Below the pieces are notes generated by a model, which was not told the origin of the DNA, did no database searches, and saw only the letters and a program-made list of their open reading frames with translations. This document shows positions 1,421 through 55,538 of a DNA stretch of 64,000 nucleotides, in pieces. Each line of letters starts with the position of its first letter. Within the stretch, counting starts at the first letter, position 1. Both the position numbers and the translations under genes were made by a program. Source of the stretch: Rikenellaceae bacterium (GTDB lineage Bacteria > Bacteroidota > Bacteroidia > Bacteroidales > Rikenellaceae); the NCBI GenBank assembly GCA_015060115.1, contig SUZB01000009.1:13260-77259 (forward strand), written 5' to 3'.

Positions 1421-3130
1421 CTACTCCAAGGCCTGCGAGATGTTGATGATAAAATCACCCATTCGCTCAATCTCCGATACGGTGTCGAGGTAGTATACCG
1501 AGTTGCGGTAGTCGCCCTCGCCACGGTCGATGCGGTAGATCTCCTCCTCACGCAAGGTGTTGCGTAGCTCGTTAATCTCAATCTCGCAGTCGGTAGCCAA
1601 GCGCAAGTCGATAGACTCGAAGTGCTCAGCCTTGAGGTTCTCGATCATCACCTTATATGCGCGGTCTACACGGTCGAGCATCTTCTCGATATTTGCAACC
1701 TGCTCCGCAGAGAACTTCTGCTGGTGCGAGTTACGGCGAGTGAGGATGCGGCTCACAGCCTCGCCCGAGTCGCCAAGGCTCTCCAACTCACCAATAATCT
1801 TATACATACGCTTAGCCTCGGTGCGTGTATCCTCCGAGATGCTATCCTCGGGCAGGGCATTGAGGAACTGCGCAATCTCATACTCTATGCGGTCAGAAAT
1901 CTCCTCGTACTTAACTAACTTAGCACACATCTGCTCGAACTCCTTGTCGCTCTTCGCATTAACAAGCTGGCGAATGTAGCCAAGGCCGTTGCGCGAAATC
2001 TCGGCAAAGTGGATAACCTCGTTGCGTGCCTGACCGATAGCGAGCTCGGCAGTCGAGAGAGGGCCGGCATCGATAAACTTAAGCTTCACTGTATCCTCCT
2101 TATCGCTCTTCTTATCCTTGATAACGCGCTCTACAATCTTCACGATAACGGGCACAAACCAGATAAGGATAGCGGTATTGAAGGTGTTGAAGAGTGTGTG
2201 GAGCATCGAGACACCGTAGAGTGTTGACATACTCTCATCGGCAGTCATTGCAATCTCCGACGAGTGAACAATATCCATTGGGTTGGGCAGACCAAGCCAA
2301 GTGATAACCGTACCTACAAGCATCAGGAAGGGGCGGAAGAGAGCAAGCGCCCAGCATACGCCAAAGAGATTGAAGAGCGTATGTGCCATTGCTGCACGGC
2401 GTGCATTGGCGTTACCTACGGCAGCTGCGATATTTGCAGTGATTGTTGTACCGATATTCTCGCCGAGCACCATCGCAGCACCCATCTCAAAGGGTATCCA
2501 GCCCATATTCACCATAATGAGCGTTAGCGCCATTGTTGCAGATGATGACTGCAACACAAGGGTCAATACCGTACCGAAGACAAGGAAGATAAGCACCGAG
2601 CCAAAGCCATAGCTTGTCCAGTTCTGGATAAATGCCAGCACCTCGGGGGTCTCCTTAAGGTCGGGCACCGACTCCTTCATCAGCGAGAGGCCGAGGAAGA
2701 GGAGCGAGAAGCCTACGATAAGCTCCGAAATGTGGCGACGCTTATCACTCTTCGAGAGGCTGAGGATAAAGCCCACGGCCATAAGGGGCACAGCAAAAAG
2801 CGAAATATCGGCCTTGAAACCGAGCAACGACACAAGCCATGCCGTAACGGTTGTACCGATATTAGCACCCATAATCACGCCTACTGCCTGCGAGAGGGTG
2901 AGTAGACCCGCATTTACAAAACCTACCGTCATCACGGTAGTTGCCGAAGACGACTGAATTACCGTAGTGATGCCAAGACCTGTAAGCACGCCCTTAAAGG
3001 GGTTTGAGGTCATTGCAGTAAGCATACCTCGCATCTTACTACCTGCAGCCTTCTGGAGGCCTGCGCTCATAAGGTTCATTCCGTAGAGGAACATACCGAG
3101 AGCGCCAAGAAGTGTCAAAATTTGTAACAT
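1421..3130 (-). CDS. Na+/phosphate cotransporter family protein (NptA/YjbB-like) with C-terminal PhoU-like domain
   Basis: Duplicated QSSSAT motifs, GANIGTT and GENIGTT, many TM segments, helical soluble C-terminus ending ERMGDFIINI. Confidence 0.92.
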   Translation of the reverse strand: MLQILTLLGALGMFLYGMNLMSAGLQKAAGSKMRGMLTAMTSNPFKGVLTGLGITTVIQSSSATTVMTVGFVNAGLLTLSQAVGVIMGANIGTTVTAWLVSLLGFKADISLFAVPLMAVGFILSLSKSDKRRHISELIVGFSLLFLGLSLMKESVPDLKETPEVLAFIQNWTSYGFGSVLIFLVFGTVLTLVLQSSSATMALTLIMVNMGWIPFEMGAAMVLGENIGTTITANIAAAVGNANARRAAMAHTLFNLFGVCWALALFRPFLMLVGTVITWLGLPNPMDIVHSSEIAMTADESMSTLYGVSMLHTLFNTFNTAILIWFVPVIVKIVERVIKDKKSDKEDTVKLKFIDAGPLSTAELAIGQARNEVIHFAEISRNGLGYIRQLVNAKSDKEFEQMCAKLVKYEEISDRIEYEIAQFLNALPEDSISEDTRTEAKRMYKIIGELESLGDSGEAVSRILTRRNSHQQKFSAEQVANIEKMLDRVDRAYKVMIENLKAEHFESIDLRLATDCEIEINELRNTLREEEIYRIDRGEGDYRNSVYYLDTVSEIERMGDFIINISQALE

Positions 3131-3160
3131 AGTTTATATAGTTTTGTAATTTTCACGACA

Positions 3161-3222
3161 CAAAAATATAGAGCAATAAAAAATCGTGCAATAGCAAAAA
3201 CGAAATGTAACGGATTTGTAAC
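3161..3222 (-). promoter_or_regulatory. Bacteroidetes -7 element with a putative Pho-box-like direct repeat upstream
   Basis: TATTTTTG on the minus strand at 3161-3168; TGTAAC-N5-TGTAAC (11-bp period) at 3206-3222. Confidence 0.45.
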
Positions 3223-3259
3223 ACGATTTTATCGGGAATGAAAAAAGGGAAAGGAGCTA

Positions 3260-3723
3260 TTAGTTATTAGTTGTTAGTTGTTAGAGTTTTTTAGGACCAG
3301 TAAGACCAATAGGACAAGTAGGACTATATGATACCCGACCTCGTAAGGTCCTAAGGTCTTAAGGTCCTATCGGTCTAAAAAAAACGAGAGCAAGCGTTTC
3401 GCCTGCGGGCTAAAGCCCAAGGGGCACAAGGATTCTGAGGGGTCAAAGGGGCGCATTAATAAAGAGAGTTTAGTGAAATTAGGGAATTTAGAGAAGTTAG
3501 GGAAGAGCACTACCAACATTTATCCCTAACCTCACTACACTCCTTAAACTCTCTAAACTCCCTTATAAACCTGCATCCAGTCAGCACACAGCCAATTTCT
3601 TGTCAGAAGGGGCTTAATTTGGATTATCGCAAAAGAATCCCCCAAGGGATAGTACACCTTAGTACAGCCCTTGGGGGATTACTTTTGGGATAGTTCGAAG
3701 GATGCCCCTTATCACAAGAAATT
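3260..3723. repeat. Composite intergenic mosaic: heptamer array, A, B, C and D modules
   Basis: Each module recurs in other spacers of this window (6680-7027, 11806-12227, 17845-18111, 38104-38322, 42196-42507, 53301-53749). Confidence 0.85.
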
Positions 3724-3725
3724 AA

Positions 3726-4424
3726 TTAGTCGCGGTTACCACCCAAAATACGCAACAACATTAGGAATAGGTTGATAAAATCGAGATACAAGGTGAGCGC
3801 ACCAAGAAGAGCGAGCTTATGACCACTCTCATCGGCAGTGCCATACTGCAAGAAGAGTTGCTTAAGCTTCTGGGTATCCCACGCTATAAGGCCGGTAAAG
3901 ATCACCACACCCGCATAAGTCGTTATCCAGTAGATGGTTGATGACTTAAGGAAGATATTGACAACGGTGGCGATAATAAGGCCTATAAGGAGCGTATAGA
4001 GCAGACTGCCCATACGCGAAAGGTCGAGGCGTGTGATATAGCCCACAAGGCTCATAGCGAGGAAAGTGCCCGCAGTAACAAAGAATGTGGTGGCTATGGT
4101 CTCGCCTGTATAGACGAGGAAGATGGAGGAGAATGTAACACCCGTAAGCACCGAATAGAGGATAAATAGGAGTGTTGCCGTGCCCATCGACATCTGCATA
4201 ACGCGCGCCGAGAGCCACAACACAAGGCCCAACTCCGCAAAAAGAAGAATCCATATTGATGCGGGGTTCATAAAGATATACTCAAGGATAGCGGGCGACG
4301 ATGCCACAAACCAAGCCGTAAGACCTGTTACGGCAAGGGCTGCCGCCATCTGAATATAGACGCTCTTAAACAAGCGACCTACAAGCGCATTCGAGGCGCT
4401 CTGTGCTGAAGAGAACTCAATCAT
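3726..4424 (-). CDS. Bax inhibitor-1/YccA family membrane protein
   Basis: Seven hydrophobic segments; C-terminal ALTLYLDFINLFLMLLRILG motif. Confidence 0.92.
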   Translation of the reverse strand: MIEFSSAQSASNALVGRLFKSVYIQMAAALAVTGLTAWFVASSPAILEYIFMNPASIWILLFAELGLVLWLSARVMQMSMGTATLLFILYSVLTGVTFSSIFLVYTGETIATTFFVTAGTFLAMSLVGYITRLDLSRMGSLLYTLLIGLIIATVVNIFLKSSTIYWITTYAGVVIFTGLIAWDTQKLKQLFLQYGTADESGHKLALLGALTLYLDFINLFLMLLRILGGNRD

Positions 4425-6678: not shown

Positions 6679-6679
6679 T

Positions 6680-7027
6680 TAGTTGTTAGTTATTAGTTTT
6701 TAGTTGTTAGAGTTTTTTTTTAAGAGCAGGCGTTTCGCCTGCGGGCTAACGCCCCAAGGGGCAAAAGAAGAGCGAATTTAGAGAGATTAAGGAATTTAGA
6801 GAAGTTAGGGAGTGCGCTACCGACATTTATCCTTAAGCTCACTACACTCCTTAAACTCACTAAATTCCCTAATAAAGCACCTACGGCTCTGCACGACCCA
6901 ATTTGTTGTCAAAAGGTAGTAGATACAACGCTCGGCAAAAAAATGCGGATGGGCTGTACTTTGGCGTACTGCTCATTCGCATTTATTTTTGTTAGCGGCA
7001 GTAGATGCTGCCTTTTCACAACAAATT
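6680..7027. repeat. Composite intergenic mosaic: heptamer array, B, C and D modules
   Basis: Modules match those at 3260-3723. Confidence 0.85.
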
Positions 7028-11767: not shown

Positions 11768-11805
11768 AAATGCAAAGGTACAAAAAAAAGAGCAAAAAGC
11801 AAAAT

Positions 11806-12227
11806 AGTTGTTAGTTATTAGTTGTTAGTTGTTAGATTTTTTTAGGACCAGTAAGACGGGTAGGACAAGTAGGACAAAATGATACCCGACCTCGTAAGGT
11901 CTTAAGGTCCTACGGTCTTAATGGTCTTAAAAAAGACAACAGAGACGCAGAGACGCAGAGACGCAGAGATAACAGAGAAAGATGATAGCCGACTTCGTTG
12001 TTGTCCCTTTCGTCTCTTTCGTCTCTTTCGTCTCTTTATCCCTAACCTCACTACACTCCTTAAACTCACTAATAGATTTGCATCCAGTCAGCACTCTGCC
12101 AATTTCTTGTCAGAAGGGGCATAATTTGGCGCCGATAAAGAGAAAGAGCGGATGGGACATACTTGGCGTATTTCCCATTCGCTCTTTAGATTGAGGCGCC
12201 GAAGGATGCCCCTTATCACAAGAAATT
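11806..12227. repeat. Composite intergenic mosaic: heptamer array, A, E, half C and D modules
   Basis: A core at 11881, related core at 11984, D arms at 12101-12120 and 12208-12227. Confidence 0.85.
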
Positions 12228-13301: not shown

Positions 13302-13463
13302 AATAAAGTATAAGTAATTAAATTATTTTTGCTATAGTAACTCGCAAAGGTACAACAAATAGTTTGGATTTCACAATTTTCCCAACAAAAAATATCGCCA
13401 CACTATAAATTATCTTGCGCCATAGCAAAAAAAAGCGTACTTTTGTAGACAAAACCACGATGT

Positions 13464-17844: not shown

Positions 17845-18111
17845 TTAGCTGTTAGTTATTAGTTGTTAGAGATTTTTTTAAGACGAGTAAGACAAGTAGG
17901 ACAAATAAGACATAGTATGATACCCGACCTCGTATTGGTCCTAAGGTCTTATCGTCTTAATGGTCTTAAAAACTCTCTGCGCTCCCCCCAGGAGCGCATC
18001 TAACAACTAATAACTAATAACTAACAACTAAAAAAGAGCGAATGGAATACTCAAAATATCCATTCGCTCTTATCGCTTAGAGGTCGCAATGGCCTCTTAT
18101 CACAACAAATT
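17845..18111. repeat. Composite intergenic mosaic: heptamer array, A, inverted heptamer array and half D
   Basis: A core at 17919; CTAACAA array at 18000-18031; terminator hairpin at 18034-18071; stop-adjacent arm to 18111. Confidence 0.8.
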
Positions 18112-38103: not shown

Positions 38104-38322
38104 GAGCAGGCTTTCGCCTGCGGGCTATGCCCCAAGGGGCAAAAGGGTTCAAAGGGAAAAAAGGGGTGGTAAGGTTAGCAGGAGTCTTGATAGTCTTACC
38201 CACCTTGAGGTTAGCACGCACGCTCTATCTCCCCTTGTGCCTCTTGTGCCCCTCAGCTTCAGCTGGCGCTCCCCAGAGCGCAACTCTAAAAACTAAAAAC
38301 TAACAACTAGCAACTAACAACT
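38104..38322. repeat. Composite intergenic mosaic: B module, AAGGGG/CCCCTT-type arms and inverted heptamer array
   Basis: GAGCAGGCTTTCGCCTGCGGGCTATGCCCCAAGGGGC matches 3388 and 6724. Confidence 0.75.
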
Positions 38323-42190: not shown

Positions 42191-42195
42191 GATTT

Positions 42196-42507
42196 TAGTT
42201 GTTAGTTGTTAGATATTAGTTGTTAGATTTAGGACCAGTAAGACGATAAGAAAAAATTGTGATACCCGACCTCGTAAGGTCTTAAGGTCTTAAGGTCCTA
42301 AGGTCCTAAAAAAATCCTAAAGTCCTAAAGTCCTAAGGTCTTATCGGTCAAAAACAGAGAAAATTTCATAGAAAACGCAGTTAAGGCAATCAGCCCTCCT
42401 TGAATCCTCCCTGAACACACACCTAAAATAAATGACGGATGTGAGATACTCAAGTATTCCCATCCGCCATTCTAACTAAAGCTGACGCACCTATATCACA
42501 ACAGATT
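42196..42507. repeat. Composite intergenic mosaic: heptamer array, expanded A and half D
   Basis: A core at 42261 with an expanded run of GTC(C/T)TAA(G/A) units; hairpin at 42431-42471; stop-adjacent arm to 42507. Confidence 0.78.
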
Positions 42508-47351: not shown

Positions 47352-47531
47352 TCACTGAGTGCCGAGAGGTGAGTAGTGAGTAATAGAGTAGGCATTGCTT
47401 GCTCTATTTTTTGTCAATAGACAACAAAATAAGCTACTTTGGCGTTGATATTGTCAATAAAATGTTATAAACAACTACCGGTAGAGGTTTATTTCAGAGA
47501 AATAATAAGTACCTTTGCCGCGTAAAATTGT

Positions 47532-53302: not shown

Positions 53303-53468
53303 AGTTGTTGGTTGTTAGAGATGCGCAGAGCTATTAAGACCATTAGGACTTTAAGACCTTAGGACTTTACGAGGTCGGGGATCATATTTCTTCTTAATGG
53401 TCTTACTCGTCTTATCGTCTTATGGTCTTATGGTCTTATCATCTTAATATCTCTAACAACTAACAACT
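53301..53468. repeat. Inverted A module bracketed by heptamer arrays
   Basis: ACGAGGTCGGGGATC at 53369-53383 is the reverse complement of the A core with one change. Confidence 0.8.
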
Positions 53469-53749
53469 CTCTCGGTCATTCTGAACGAAGTGAAGAATCT
53501 ATCGGTTAGTAAGACCATCGACTGCCCACAAAACCTTGAGATCCTTCGTTGCACTCAGGATGACACCCACTAACAACTAATAACTAACAACTAACAACTA
53601 AAAACTAACAACTCTCTCGGTCATTCTGAACGAAGTGAAGAATCTATCGGTTAGTAAGACCATCGACTGCCCACAAAACCTTGAGATCCTTCGTTGCACT
53701 CAGGATGACACCCACTAACAACTAATAACTAACAACTAACAACTAAAAA
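53458..53749. repeat. Perfect 145-bp tandem duplication carrying a 90-bp REP-like hairpin (F)
   Basis: GTCATTCTGAACGAAGTGAAGAATCT...AGATCCTTCGTTGCACTCAGGATGAC at 53475-53564 and 53620-53709. Confidence 0.92.
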
Positions 53750-53800
53750 TTAACCACTCTACTTGCTTATTTCGCTGATTTTTTATAACTTTGTGCTATA

Positions 53801-55538
53801 ATGGATAGTGTGTCGAAACTCGCAGAGCGTATGGGTGGAATTAGAGAGTATATAGCTAATGCGTTGGGCAGCCGGGGGGCAATATCGCGGTGCGGTTGTC
53901 TGGGTGCTATTGTGGCGTGTATGTTCGTGGCGGTAGGTTGCGCCACAGATAAGCGGAGTGCGGAGCTTATCGCCTATGCCGAGGAGATTGCAATGGAGTT
54001 GCCCGACTCGGCGCTAAGGGTGGTGCAGAGCATCGACCCTGAGAGTGTGCGCGGCAGGCACGACCGAGCACACTATAAGCTCGTTGTTGCCGAGGCGCAC
54101 TACTATCGTGATTTGATTCCCAATCGAGACTCTATCGCTCAACCGCTGTTCGACTACTATATTGAGAGCGATAACCACGCCGAGCGTGCTCGCGCACTAT
54201 ATCAGCACGCCCTTGTTATGCAGGCCGAGGGCGAGAATGCCCGTGCTATGTTCTCGCTTTTGGAGGCCGAAAAGTCGCTTTCGCACCTCGACAATCCTCG
54301 CCTCTTGGGTCTTGTGCATCGCACAATGGGCGAGATTTATGGTGCAGAGTGTCTATTCCAAAATGCTTTGGAGGAGTATCAGAAATCAAAGGAGTATTTT
54401 GATAAGGCAGAGTTACCTATTCATAGTGCATACGCCACCTATGACATTGCAATCATTTATAATAGAATGCGCGATTTTGAAGCAGCAATTAAGATGCTTT
54501 TGATTGCTGAAGATGAATTTGGGAGGCTTAATGAATATGGACATATGTTTGACACTCAAATTGAGTTATGCTATAACTATATCCAGCTGAATGATTATTC
54601 AAATTGTAGAAATATATTTAATAGGATAAAAACTCATAATTTAAACACTTATAGTCTATGTGATTATTATTGTATATCTGCAATACTATCTGCTATAGAT
54701 GGCAATTTAAATCAAGCTTATCTTCTATTAAACAGGGCAAAACAAGAATTAATAATCAATCCAATGCAACTTGCATATGCTGAATATATAATTATTAGGT
54801 TGCAAGGAAATGATACAGAAGCCTTGAATTTTCATCTGCAGATGGTTGCTGAACAAGATAAATTCGTCTTTAATGCTATAAATAACTCTTTGCTGCAGAG
54901 TCAGGTTGATTTGTTATCTGACCAAGTGGCAAGCACTAAGGAGATTCAACAGAAGACTCGTTTTATAAATTATCTACTCACAATACTGTCCGTGGGTATT
55001 GTGCTAATATTTATATATTATATAAAGGATAAACAACATAAGCACAAAGTGGAGATAGCACAAAGTATGGCGATAGCATCAGAACTTCGCAATATTCTTA
55101 CACTTAAAGATAGTGAGATTCTAAGTCAGCAAAATATCATAGAGCAGCTCTTTGCTTCACGCTTCGACACTATTGATAAGCTAAGTTGTGCCTATTTTGA
55201 GGCTCAAGGCTTTAATAACGAGAAGCAGAGAATCTATCGTGAGGTCTCATCTTTGATTGATGATATTAGTTCCGACAAAAAAAGCAATTAAGAGGATGGA
55301 GGATTTTGTGAATACCTACAAAGATAACCTAATGTTAAAATTCCGTTCTTCAATTCCAAATGCTACGGAAGATGATACGCAACTTTACTTATATATGGCA
55401 CTTGGTTTCTCACCTCGCGCTATTAGTATATTTATGAAGAAGAGTGTAGATGCAGTCTATAATCTTAAATCTCGACTGCGTCATAAGATAATAAAAAGTA
55501 ACTCTCAATATATAGAAATACTTCTCGGCGTGTTGTAG
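53801..55538 (+). pseudogene. TPR-TM-HTH membrane-anchored regulator split by a +1 frameshift in an A7 run
   Basis: ORF 53801-55291 ends SSDKKSN*. The overlapping +1 frame continues KKAIKRMEDFVN...GFSPRAISIF...VYNLKSRLR (LuxR-like HTH). Removing one A from 55277-55283 fuses them. Confidence 0.75.

What the first reader, a model, noticed from the sequence alone, without database searches (positions are those of the whole stretch)
3291..3377. Family A: hairpins with 8-9-nt periodic arms around an invariant 15-bp core
Seen: core GATACCCGACCTCGT at 3330, 11881, 17919 and 42261, and inverted with one change at 53369-53383. The left arm is made of TA(A/G)GAC units and the right arm of GTC(C/T)TA units. 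Unit number varies by copy and is strongly expanded at 42276-42349. The loop core is more conserved than the stem, the opposite of an ordinary terminator. Inference: the core is a recognition or cleavage site for a trans-acting protein (REP/RAYT-like), and the arms expand by slippage.
Basis: partly seen in the sequence, partly recalled or inferred. Interest (0 to 1): 0.65.

Follow-up and report, generated by a model that had tools for sequence, protein, structure and literature searches.

The report
Alistipes hairpin repeats flanking four-helix-bundle genes
The hairpins are real copies of an undescribed non-coding repeat of gut Alistipes (depth about 100 times that of single-copy DNA), and in related bacteria rows of the same hairpin flank a small four-helix-bundle gene of unknown function, which makes that protein the best candidate for the factor that recognises them.

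Summary
Five copies plus one variant of an 85-125-nt hairpin lie in the window. Each has 8-9-nt periodic arms around GATACCCGACCTCGT.

The family is widespread in ruminant and other gut Alistipes. I found 62 distinct copies in MAGs and metagenomes. In the window's own metagenomes the core's summed contig depth is about 100 times that of unique flanks.

The core stays identical where arms, unit numbers and flanking genes diverge. It also occurs with a quite different arm type. Copies are present or absent at comparable sites, form tandem rows, and sit as one optional module in a fixed-order mosaic of hairpin modules.

Nothing supports an RNA gene or terminator: there is no fixed orientation, no strand bias in folding and no Rfam match.

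New result: in 11 of 12 lineages sampled by protein, not by repeat, a 181-aa four-helix-bundle "suffix" gene has such hairpins just upstream. In 10 of the 11 whose downstream flank was held, they also follow the gene. This gene belongs to the PF05635/TIGR02436 family of 23S-rRNA-intervening-sequence and Avd proteins. Arm type tracks protein subgroup.

Best reading: a REP/BIME-like repeat whose partner is this protein. Binding and the means of spread are inferred.

The parts
3287..3384 (+). Family A copy 1: T-run 3287-3292, left arm 3292-3327 (4 units), core 3330-3344, right arm 3345-3377 (4 units), A-run 3377-3384
   Evidence: -36.0 kcal/mol, z -5.3
11837..11934 (+). Family A copy 2: T-run, left arm 11843-11877, core 11881-11895, right arm 11896-11929, A-run
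   Evidence: -38.8 kcal/mol, z -5.5; orthologous copy in L097
11940..12037 (+). Variant copy with E-type arms (CAGAGACG x3.8 / GTCTCTTTC x3.9) around GATAGCCGACTTCGT (11984-11998)
   Evidence: -41.4 kcal/mol, z -4.9. E-type arms carry the exact family A core in L014 and L050. An 8-nt unit is missing at 11940 in 3 of 4 runs.
17873..17972 (+). Family A copy 3, core 17919-17933. It is nested with a GC hairpin (17975-17999) between TTAGTTG arrays (17845-17870) and CTAACAA arrays (18000-18031).
   Evidence: -32.0 kcal/mol, z -4.8
42228..42354 (+). Family A copy 4, core 42261-42275. The left arm is short and the right arm is expanded to about 8 units (42276-42349).
   Evidence: period 8, 7.9 copies; z -2.8
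53334..53449 (-). Family A copy 5, inverted, core 53369-53383 with one change (GATCCCCGACCTCGT), downstream of the rpsU-like gene
   Evidence: The syntenic locus L121 has two copies at this site.
3258..3286 (+). TTAGTTG heptamer array that precedes the hairpin. The same arrangement is seen at 11805-11835, 17845-17870 and 42195-42226; reverse arrays lie at 18000-18031 and 53453-53468.
6679..6745 (+). Paralogous mosaic without module A: heptamers, then T9, then directly AAGAGCAGGCGTTTCGCC. This is the within-genome 'empty' form.
47352..47531 (.). Spacer with no family A copy here, while the syntenic spacer of L121 holds one (core at L121 6611, GAGACAGT-type arms)

Best explanation
Family A is one module of a REP/BIME-like system of non-coding hairpin repeats in gut Alistipes. 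Each unit is a T-run, 3-5 units of TA(A/G)GAC-N3, an apical core (GATACCCGACCTCGT), 3-8 units of the complementary GTC(C/T)TA, and an A-run. The unit acts at the DNA level, or equally on either strand, not as a directional RNA signal. The constant core, and probably the periodic arms, are recognised by a small four-helix-bundle 'suffix' protein. This protein belongs to PF05635/TIGR02436 with TIGR04258, the family of the 23S-rRNA-intervening-sequence protein S23p and of the retroelement protein Avd. In relatives its gene is flanked by rows of the same hairpin, as RAYT genes are flanked by their REPs and ssnA by its NTS repeats.

Shown: the family, its copy number, its modular gain and loss, the constraint on the core, and the linkage between the gene and the hairpins.

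Inferred: that the protein binds the hairpins; that arm units change by slipped-strand mispairing; and that the two arms are kept complementary by intrastrand template switching (quasipalindrome correction).

Unknown: the enzyme or process that copies units to new sites.
For: The family is real and dispersed. There are 6 matches against 0.11 expected in the window, and 62 distinct copies in Alistipes MAGs and gut metagenomes. In DNA runs that hold the window's strain at 100% identity, depth at the core is 120x and 94x that of unique flanks.

The core is constrained. 30 of 30 core bases are identical at an orthologous spacer that is 74.7% identical overall. The exact core also occurs inside unrelated E-type arms (L014, L050). 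Every hairpin found by its arms alone carries the core.

The unit is an optional module. The module order is fixed: heptamers, A, GC module, 9-nt hairpin, stop-codon element. A is cleanly absent at 6679-6745. One syntenic spacer is filled in L121 and empty in the window, and another holds one copy against two. Tandem rows have a period of about 108 nt.

The gene is linked to the hairpins. In L139, L134 and L130 the 181-aa gene has family A copies on both sides, co-oriented with it. I then took homologues by protein only. L169 (97% identity) has 4 copies upstream and 1 downstream. L187, L181 and L185 have core variants. L170 and L188 have A arms with a diverged core. L171-175, L176-180, L182 and L184 have other periodic-arm hairpins on both sides. 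By eye this gives 11 of 12 lineages upstream, and 10 of the 11 whose downstream flank was held. A crude automatic score gave 16 of 24 flanks against 3 of 19 window spacers.

Arm type tracks protein subgroup: 80% identity or more goes with A arms, 66-72% with E arms, 64% or less with other arms.

The protein family is supported by TIGR04258 at 65 bits (cut-off 40) and TIGR02436 at 30.1 bits (cut-off 24). The AlphaFold model has pLDDT 88, and its top fold matches are 2GSC and 2RLD, both S23p family. The gene appears in a metatranscriptome contig.
Against: No binding or activity data exist.

The window itself has no such gene. The P0001 orthologue is absent at 90% or more nucleotide identity from the window's own metagenomes.

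The match between arm type and protein subgroup could be shared descent. Several loci are syntenic (DUF4988 ... BACON).

One homologue (L189, 88% identity) overlaps an hsdM-like gene and has no upstream hairpin. L185 has none downstream.

The gene could simply prefer to sit in hairpin-rich spacers.

The core varies less neatly with the protein than the arms do. The Pfam hit (30.5 bits) is below the gathering score of 33.8.
Confidence: 0.5

Rival explanations
1. The four-helix-bundle gene is a small cassette that settles or recombines preferentially in pre-existing hairpin rows, or uses the hairpin as an attachment-like site. The linkage then reflects target choice. The protein does not read the hairpins, and solo hairpins are independent selfish or neutral repeats.
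For: The gene is flanked by direct repeats of a whole 'terminator plus hairpin' block in L130, L139 and L169. This is what insertion or recombination within a row would give. The cassette is present upstream of the TPR_21/ribH-like operon in L170-175 and L188 but absent at the same junction in the window (13302-13463) and in L159-168. One chimeric copy sits in an hsdM-like operon.
Against: Flanks are complete hairpins, not half-arms, and no target duplication is seen. The linkage holds across hairpin families with unrelated cores and periods of 8, 9, 10 and 11 nt. The largest rows (4-5 units) are found only beside the gene.
Confidence: 0.2
2. Classical REP/RAYT logic: a Y1 HUH transposase encoded elsewhere in the genome recognises the hairpin, cuts at or near the core and spreads it through single-stranded DNA.
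For: These are dispersed extragenic palindromes in mosaic clusters. Bacteroidetes have their own RAYT subclass (2.6) with atypical structures (PMC6006769). GTAG occurs inside many arm units (GTAGGAC).
Against: There is no fixed GT[AG]G foot. The size is 85-125 nt against 20-40. The conserved part is the apex. Published subclass 2.6 motifs are short GC hairpins such as GCTAGCGCGAGCGTCCCGCTCGTG. No HUH...Y..NP signature occurs in 232 kb. Rows flank a different gene.
Confidence: 0.12
3. A host cis-element that works as RNA: a terminator, insulator, UTR stabiliser, RNase III site or small RNA whose conserved loop pairs with or binds a factor.
For: Copies lie between the upstream gene's terminator and the next promoter. 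Metatranscriptome contigs contain them. The related 23S intervening sequences are RNase III substrates (PMC4990558).
Against: Orientation relative to flanking genes is mixed in the large set, roughly 9 against 7 for co-directional flanks. The U-run precedes and the A-run follows the hairpin on either strand, so neither transcript has a terminator tail. The two strands fold about equally well (33 against 27). There is no Rfam match. RNA depth relative to flanks (106x and 15x) does not exceed the DNA ratio of about 100x.
Confidence: 0.1

Closest known systems
REP sequences, BIMEs and REPINs with RAYT (TnpA-REP) genes (PMC3733652, PMC6006769, PMC3116915)
   Same: High-copy extragenic palindromes. 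Mosaic clusters of modules in a fixed order. Tandem rows. Rows of the repeat flank a small single gene whose lineage goes with the repeat type (REPtron logic).
   Different: No GT[AG]G or CGTC foot. Three times longer. Periodic 8-9-nt arms. The conserved part is apical. The flanked gene is a four-helix-bundle protein with no known catalytic motif, not a Y1 HUH enzyme.
ORF-bearing 23S rRNA intervening sequences (Coxiella burnetii, Leptospira; PMC4990558)
   Same: The same protein family (S23p, PF05635) is tied to a long stem. Short tandem repeats (heptamer GACAGAT) vary in number between strains. The element has been proposed to be selfish or mobile.
   Different: There the gene lies inside one stem-loop within rRNA, which RNase III excises. 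Here the gene lies between complete hairpins in ordinary spacers, and about 100 gene-less hairpins are dispersed.
Ssn nucleases and NTS repeats (PMC11893778)
   Same: A repeat present in hundreds of copies is specifically linked to, and surrounds, one small gene whose product recognises it. Different homologues have different cognate sequences.
   Different: Ssn is a GIY-YIG single-strand nuclease with shown activity. NTS is a short motif, not a periodic-arm hairpin.
Small dispersed repeats (SDR) embedded in tandem heptamer arrays of Nostocaceae (Elhai et al. 2008). Recalled from memory; the paper is not held. It is cited in PMC5861425 and PMC4390886.
   Same: A 15-27-nt constant unit sits at the centre of hairpins built from short tandem repeats, inside inverted heptamer arrays, with nested and modular arrangements.
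   Different: Different phylum and sequences. No protein partner was reported. Membership is excluded by taxon and sequence.
TwoAYGGAY RNA motif (RF01731; bioRxiv 10.64898/2026.09.22.753630)
   Same: Multi-copy hairpins with invariant terminal loops, flanked by short degenerate tandem repeats and REP rows. Function unknown.
   Different: No Rfam match here. Found in Proteobacteria. It has directional RNA structure with covariation.
Avd of diversity-generating retroelements (PMC10053308)
   Same: Homologous four-helix-bundle fold. A nucleic-acid-handling accessory protein that works with a specific structured RNA or DNA.
   Different: Avd acts with a reverse transcriptase beside template and variable repeats. 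No reverse transcriptase lies near any locus examined.

Membership tests
REP/RAYT (REPIN) | 20-40-bp palindrome with a conserved GT[AG]G (or CGTC) tetranucleotide at the foot | tested here: not met
   Units are 85-125 nt with T-run and A-run feet. GTAG occurs only inside some arm units. The conserved block is apical.
REP/RAYT (REPIN) | A Y1 HUH (RAYT) gene in the genome, flanked by the cognate repeat | tested here: inconclusive
   No HUH...Y..NP signature in 232 kb of window plus loci.
REP/BIME | Extragenic, high copy number, mosaic clusters of modules | tested here: met
   All window copies lie in spacers. Depth is about 100x. Module order is fixed, with optional modules.
MITE | Terminal inverted repeats as the conserved part, plus target-site duplication | tested here: not met
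   No duplication at filled versus empty sites. The ends vary in unit number, and the centre is the conserved part.
23S rRNA intervening-sequence-type element | A PF05635 (S23p) gene associated with the stem | tested here: met
   Met in relatives (L130, L134, L139, L169 and others). Not in this window.
23S rRNA intervening-sequence-type element | Gene enclosed in the loop of one stem, inserted in an rRNA helix | tested here: not met
   The gene lies between complete hairpins in protein-gene spacers.
Rho-independent terminator | GC-rich hairpin followed by a U-tract on the transcribed strand | tested here: not met
   The T-run is 5' and the A-run 3' of the hairpin on both strands. Separate canonical terminators lie upstream.
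Known RNA families (Rfam 15) | Covariance-model match | tested here: not met
   Only 3 tRNAs at gathering score in the window. Only microRNA-like noise in array loci at E of 1 or less.
Four helix bundle suffix protein (TIGR04258 with TIGR02436) | Score above NCBIfam cut-offs, and an S23p-like fold | tested here: met
   65.1 bits (cut-off 40) and 30.1 bits (cut-off 24). Fold matches to 2GSC and 2RLD with probability 1.00. Pfam PF05635 at 30.5 bits is just under its gathering score of 33.8.

The most novel reading that the evidence does not exclude
PF05635 four-helix-bundle 'suffix' proteins are the sequence-specific partners of periodic-arm hairpin repeats. Each protein lineage reads its own arm unit and/or apical core and governs the maintenance or spread of about 100 gene-less hairpins per genome. 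This would be a transposase-free protein-repeat system parallel to RAYT/REP and Ssn/NTS. It would also give the long-orphan S23p/Avd-like family, and the 23S intervening sequences, a function.
Probability: 0.35. Interest if true: 0.85.

Novelty: new variant of a known kind. Interest (0 to 1): 0.68.

Why it matters
Alistipes is a major gut genus, and these repeats fill a large share of its longer spacers and break short-read assemblies there. No paper in the searched library describes the family.

More broadly, PF05635 proteins (S23p of rRNA intervening sequences, relatives of Avd) have had no known function outside retroelements for 30 years. A reproducible link between one subfamily and cognate hairpin repeats yields a simple bench test: binding assays with arm or core swaps. 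It may also explain how short periodic repeats and palindromes arise and stay matched.

If the protein is a programmable reader of periodic DNA or RNA, it would also be of interest as a tool.

Tried and rejected
1. My first guess was cyanobacterial SDR/STRR repeats. This was wrong on the organism. Earlier notes, MAG titles and a source name point to Alistipes. The resemblance is kept only as an analogy.

2. Orientation tied to transcription. It is 5 of 5 in the window, but this comes from the fixed module order anchored at stop codons. Orientation is mixed in the large set.

3. Strand-specific RNA folding through G-U pairs. There is none: 33 against 27, and no dependence on gene direction.

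4. A shared CCGAC apical determinant across hairpin families. CCGAC is not enriched at hairpin apices outside families A and E.

5. tRNA-derived core. The 3 window tRNAs do not match.

6. Phage origin. The 17 viral hits are all chance matches with no arms.

8. Strain-level filled and empty alleles from Logan contigs and exact-protein look-ups. Contigs break at the repeats.

9. Two automatic detectors of periodic-arm hairpins were too insensitive. A third was crude.

10. Co-abundance test for the gene in the window's metagenomes. The P0001 orthologue was not there.

Full report
OBSERVATION

The 15-mer GATACCCGACCTCGT occurs exactly at 3330, 11881, 17919 and 42261 on the + strand. It occurs with one change at 53369-53383 on the - strand and with two changes at 11984. 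That is six matches against 0.11 expected from shuffles.

Around each core the left flank consists of TA(A/G)GAC-N3 units and the right flank of N2-3-GTC(C/T)TA units. Tandem Repeats Finder reports period 9 and period 8 arrays of 3-4 units, and 7.9 units at 42275-42340.

The elements fold into single long hairpins of -29 to -41 kcal/mol. The z-scores are -4.3 to -5.5 for the four full copies and the variant, and -2.8 for the lopsided copy at 42261.

- Each hairpin has a T-run before it and an A-run after it. Because of the symmetry this is true on both strands, so neither transcript would have a terminator tail.
- In the window every copy follows a TTAGTTG heptamer array. Two copies (17919, 53369) are enclosed, together with a small GC hairpin, between TTAGTTG and CTAACAA arrays.
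- The copy at 11984 has unrelated arms (CAGAGACG / GTCTCTTTC) around a core with two changes.

ORGANISM AND SPREAD

I first took the heptamers for cyanobacterial repeats. That was wrong. Earlier notes on this genome name Alistipes. Within a mostly chance-level pattern scan of species genomes, six loci from four Alistipes MAGs (goat, yak and others) carry the core in the same hairpin context.

A longer pattern found 28 metagenome contigs. Of these, 25 carry real elements; they include Alpine ibex gut contigs. Together this gives 62 distinct copies, of which 43 have the exact core.

In two DNA runs that hold the window's strain without a single difference, summed contig depth at the core is 1654 against 13.8, and 8751 against 93.3, for the unique flanks. 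That is about 100-fold. Other species in the sample may contribute, so this is an upper estimate of copies per genome. The window's own density (5-6 per 64 kb) is of the same order.

No copy was found in viral contigs, and there is no Rfam match.

ANATOMY ACROSS COPIES

There are two forms.
- Type 1, as in the window: the arms abut the core.
- Type 2: an extra GATGGTYRCGGACAACGNN lies before the core. It is an imperfect inverted copy of the core and pairs with CCCGACCTCGT. It is sometimes expanded by (CAACRGC)n.

The exact core also sits inside E-type arms in L014 and L050, and inside GAGACAGT-type arms in L121. Conversely, every hairpin that I located by TA(A/G)GAC/GTCYTA arms alone has the core at its apex.

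Ascertainment inflates the core's conservation (1.83 bits per position, against 0.30 for the left arm and 0.69 for the right). An unbiased case exists, however. The orthologous spacer in L097 is 74.7% identical to the window over 403 nt. It has 5 and 3 arm units instead of 4 and 4. Yet both cores (family A and the E variant, 30 of 30 bases) are unchanged. At 75% identity this has a chance of about 2 in 10,000. The core is therefore under sequence constraint or is homogenised, while the arms turn over.

MODULAR GAIN AND LOSS

An alignment of seven spacers shows a fixed module order: heptamers, T-run, A hairpin, A-run, a GC module, a 9-nt-periodic hairpin, and the stop-codon-docked element.
- Module A is cleanly missing at 6679-6745: T9 is followed at once by AAGAGCAGGCG.
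- The E hairpin replaces two modules at 11940.
- The GC module is missing in L117.

No target duplication is visible. The AAGA microhomology at the junction fits deletion as well as insertion.

L121 is syntenic with window 43.5-53.3 kb at 70-77% identity. There the spacer matching 47352-47531 holds a copy that the window lacks, and the rpsU-distal spacer holds two copies where the window has one. An 8-nt arm unit at 11940 is absent in three of four metagenomes. Tandem rows of 4-5 units with a period of about 108 nt occur in L134, L139 and L169.

WHAT IT IS NOT
- Orientation relative to flanking genes looked absolute in the window (5 of 5 antisense). This follows from the fixed module order anchored at stop codons. 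In the larger set, co-directional flanks split about 9 to 7.
- The two strands fold equally well (33 against 27), whatever the gene direction.
- RNA contigs contain the element, but their depth ratio (106x and 15x) does not exceed the DNA ratio.
- These points argue against a directional RNA element, a terminator or an abundant small RNA.
- REP/RAYT membership fails on the foot motif, size and layout. Published Bacteroidetes RAYT-linked motifs are short GC hairpins. No HUH/Y1 signature is present in 232 kb.

THE GENE BESIDE THE DENSEST CLUSTERS

The rows in L139 and L134, and two single copies in L130, flank the same 181-aa gene on both sides and are co-oriented with it. Each flank is a repeat of 'terminator plus hairpin'.

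The protein matches TIGR04258 (four helix bundle suffix domain, 65 bits, cut-off 40), TIGR02436 (30.1 bits, cut-off 24) and PF05635 (30.5 bits, just under the gathering score of 33.8). An AlphaFold model (pLDDT 88) is closest to 2GSC and 2RLD, the S23p-family structures. The profile search also touches 2GSC.

This is the family of the ORF in 23S rRNA intervening sequences. In Coxiella that ORF lies in a 28-bp stem with a variable number of tandem heptamers (PMC4990558). It is also the family of Avd of diversity-generating retroelements (PMC10053308).

UNBIASED TEST

Those loci had been selected for the repeat, so I sampled homologues by protein instead. The search returned at least 7986 homologues at E of 1e-10 or less. 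Many sit on contigs of about 1 kb, as expected if repeats break the assembly on both sides. I then read their flanks.

| Locus (protein, % identity to P0001) | Upstream flank | Downstream flank |
|---|---|---|
| L169 (P0003, 97%) | four family A units | one family A unit |
| L187 (P0009, 80%) | A arms with GATGCCCGACTTCGT | an A-arm hairpin without the core |
| L170 and L188 (P0007 and P0006, 82-83%) | A arms with a diverged core (TTTGTCCGCAACCATC) | the same |
| L171-175 (P0017, 72%) | E arms with GATACTCGAGTTTCT | the same |
| L185/186 (P0026, 69%) | E arms with GATGCTCGACTTCGT | none |
| L181 (P0040, 66%) | E arms with GATACCCGACTTCGT | A arms with two core variants |
| L176-180 (P0057, 64%) | CGGGACNN / AGTCTCG arms (up to about 25 units) around a GC hairpin | the same |
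| L182/183 (P0055, 62%; a source names it as Alistipes) | 11-nt arms around GGATAACGCAATCAGYCCTCC | the same |
| L184 (P0094, 58%) | 10-nt ATAGGAAGAG arms, two units | two units |
| L189 (P0008, 88%; chimeric) | none; the gene overlaps an hsdM-like gene | contig ends in the terminator |

The 11-nt core of L182/183 belongs to a module also present in the window at 42355-42415.

By eye, 11 of 12 lineages have a periodic-arm hairpin just upstream, and 10 of the 11 whose downstream flank was held have one just downstream. About 6 of 19 long spacers in the window have one. A crude automatic score gave 16 of 24 flanks against 3 of 19 spacers.

Arm type follows protein subgroup: 80% identity or more goes with A arms, 66-72% with E arms, 64% or less with others. 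Several loci are syntenic, so shared descent may explain part of that pattern. The enrichment of hairpins at the flanks is the firmer result.

The cassette is itself present or absent. It lies upstream of the TPR_21/ribH-like operon in L170-175 and L188, but not in the window (13302-13463) or its close strains.

The window has no such gene. The P0001 orthologue is not in the window's metagenomes at 90% or more nucleotide identity, though it is in a metatranscriptome contig. Whether this genome has a cognate paralogue is open.

MECHANISM

Shown:
- a dispersed, modular hairpin family;
- a constrained apical core;
- fast change in unit number;
- tight linkage of such hairpins to four-helix-bundle suffix genes.

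Inferred:
- The protein, whose solved relatives are ring-forming pentamers (PMC4990558, citing Lin 2006), binds the core and/or the periodic arms.
- Units are gained and lost by slipped-strand mispairing.
- The two arms stay complementary through intrastrand template switching at quasipalindromes, an established mutational route in bacteria (my own knowledge).
- Rows grow near the gene, as REPs do near RAYT.

Unknown: how units reach new sites, and whether the system is selfish or serves the host.

The main rival is that the gene merely prefers hairpin-rich spacers.

COMPARISON AND NOVELTY

The element works like REP/BIME with a REPtron-like gene, and like Ssn/NTS (PMC11893778). It shares its protein family with the 23S intervening sequences, and its look with the cyanobacterial small dispersed repeats. 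It meets the membership criteria of none of them.

I found no description in the searched literature. Earlier notes of this scan report similar links between four-helix-bundle genes and inverted 7-8-nt arrays in other genomes. I reached the link independently and treat those notes as leads only. One of them is marked as partly fallen.

I rate this a new variant of a known kind. My confidence in the full explanation is 0.5: about 0.95 for the repeat family, about 0.8 for the gene linkage, and about 0.45 for direct binding.

Noticed in passing
window 17975-17999, 38262-38290, 53313-53331; L119, L126, L129: A short GC hairpin (CTGCGCTC-loop-GAGCGCAACTCT) recurs directly beside CTAACAA heptamer arrays. 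In size and style it looks more like the published Bacteroidetes RAYT-linked motifs than family A does.
   Followed up: no
window 42355-42415: The module ACGCAGTTAAGGCAATCAGCCCTCC followed by CCTCCCTGAA units belongs to the 11-nt-periodic hairpin family that flanks the four-helix-bundle gene P0055 in an Alistipes MAG (L182/L183).
   Followed up: partly
window 53453-53760: A 145-bp tandem duplication (2.1 copies, 98% identical). Each copy holds an ACTAACA heptamer array. It lies between family A copy 5 and the promoter of the gene at 53801.
   Followed up: no
window 13302-13463 versus L170-L175, L188: Relatives carry a four-helix-bundle gene with its hairpins upstream of the TPR_21/ribH-like operon. 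The window and its close strains (L159-L168) have recF-like next to TPR there and no cassette.
   Followed up: partly
window 3121-3762: Contigs in two metagenomes (X15, X18) join 3121 to 3762. In those strains the whole 640-bp repeat-filled spacer is absent or replaced.
   Followed up: no
L189 676-1218: A chimeric four-helix-bundle gene. The 3' part is near-identical to P0001. The 5' part is different and overlaps (ATGA) the end of an hsdM-like methylase gene, with no upstream hairpin.
   Followed up: no
L130, L134, L139, L169-L188: One terminator sequence (CGGAGCTTCCC-loop-GGGAGGCTCCG plus a T-run) recurs before hairpins and after four-helix-bundle genes across many lineages. It seems to be a repeated module in its own right.
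   Followed up: no
L055 1960-2100, 5110-5200; L115; L128: Long arrays of ACTGGGGA octamers (G-rich) directly follow family A right arms in goat and ibex Alistipes.
   Followed up: no
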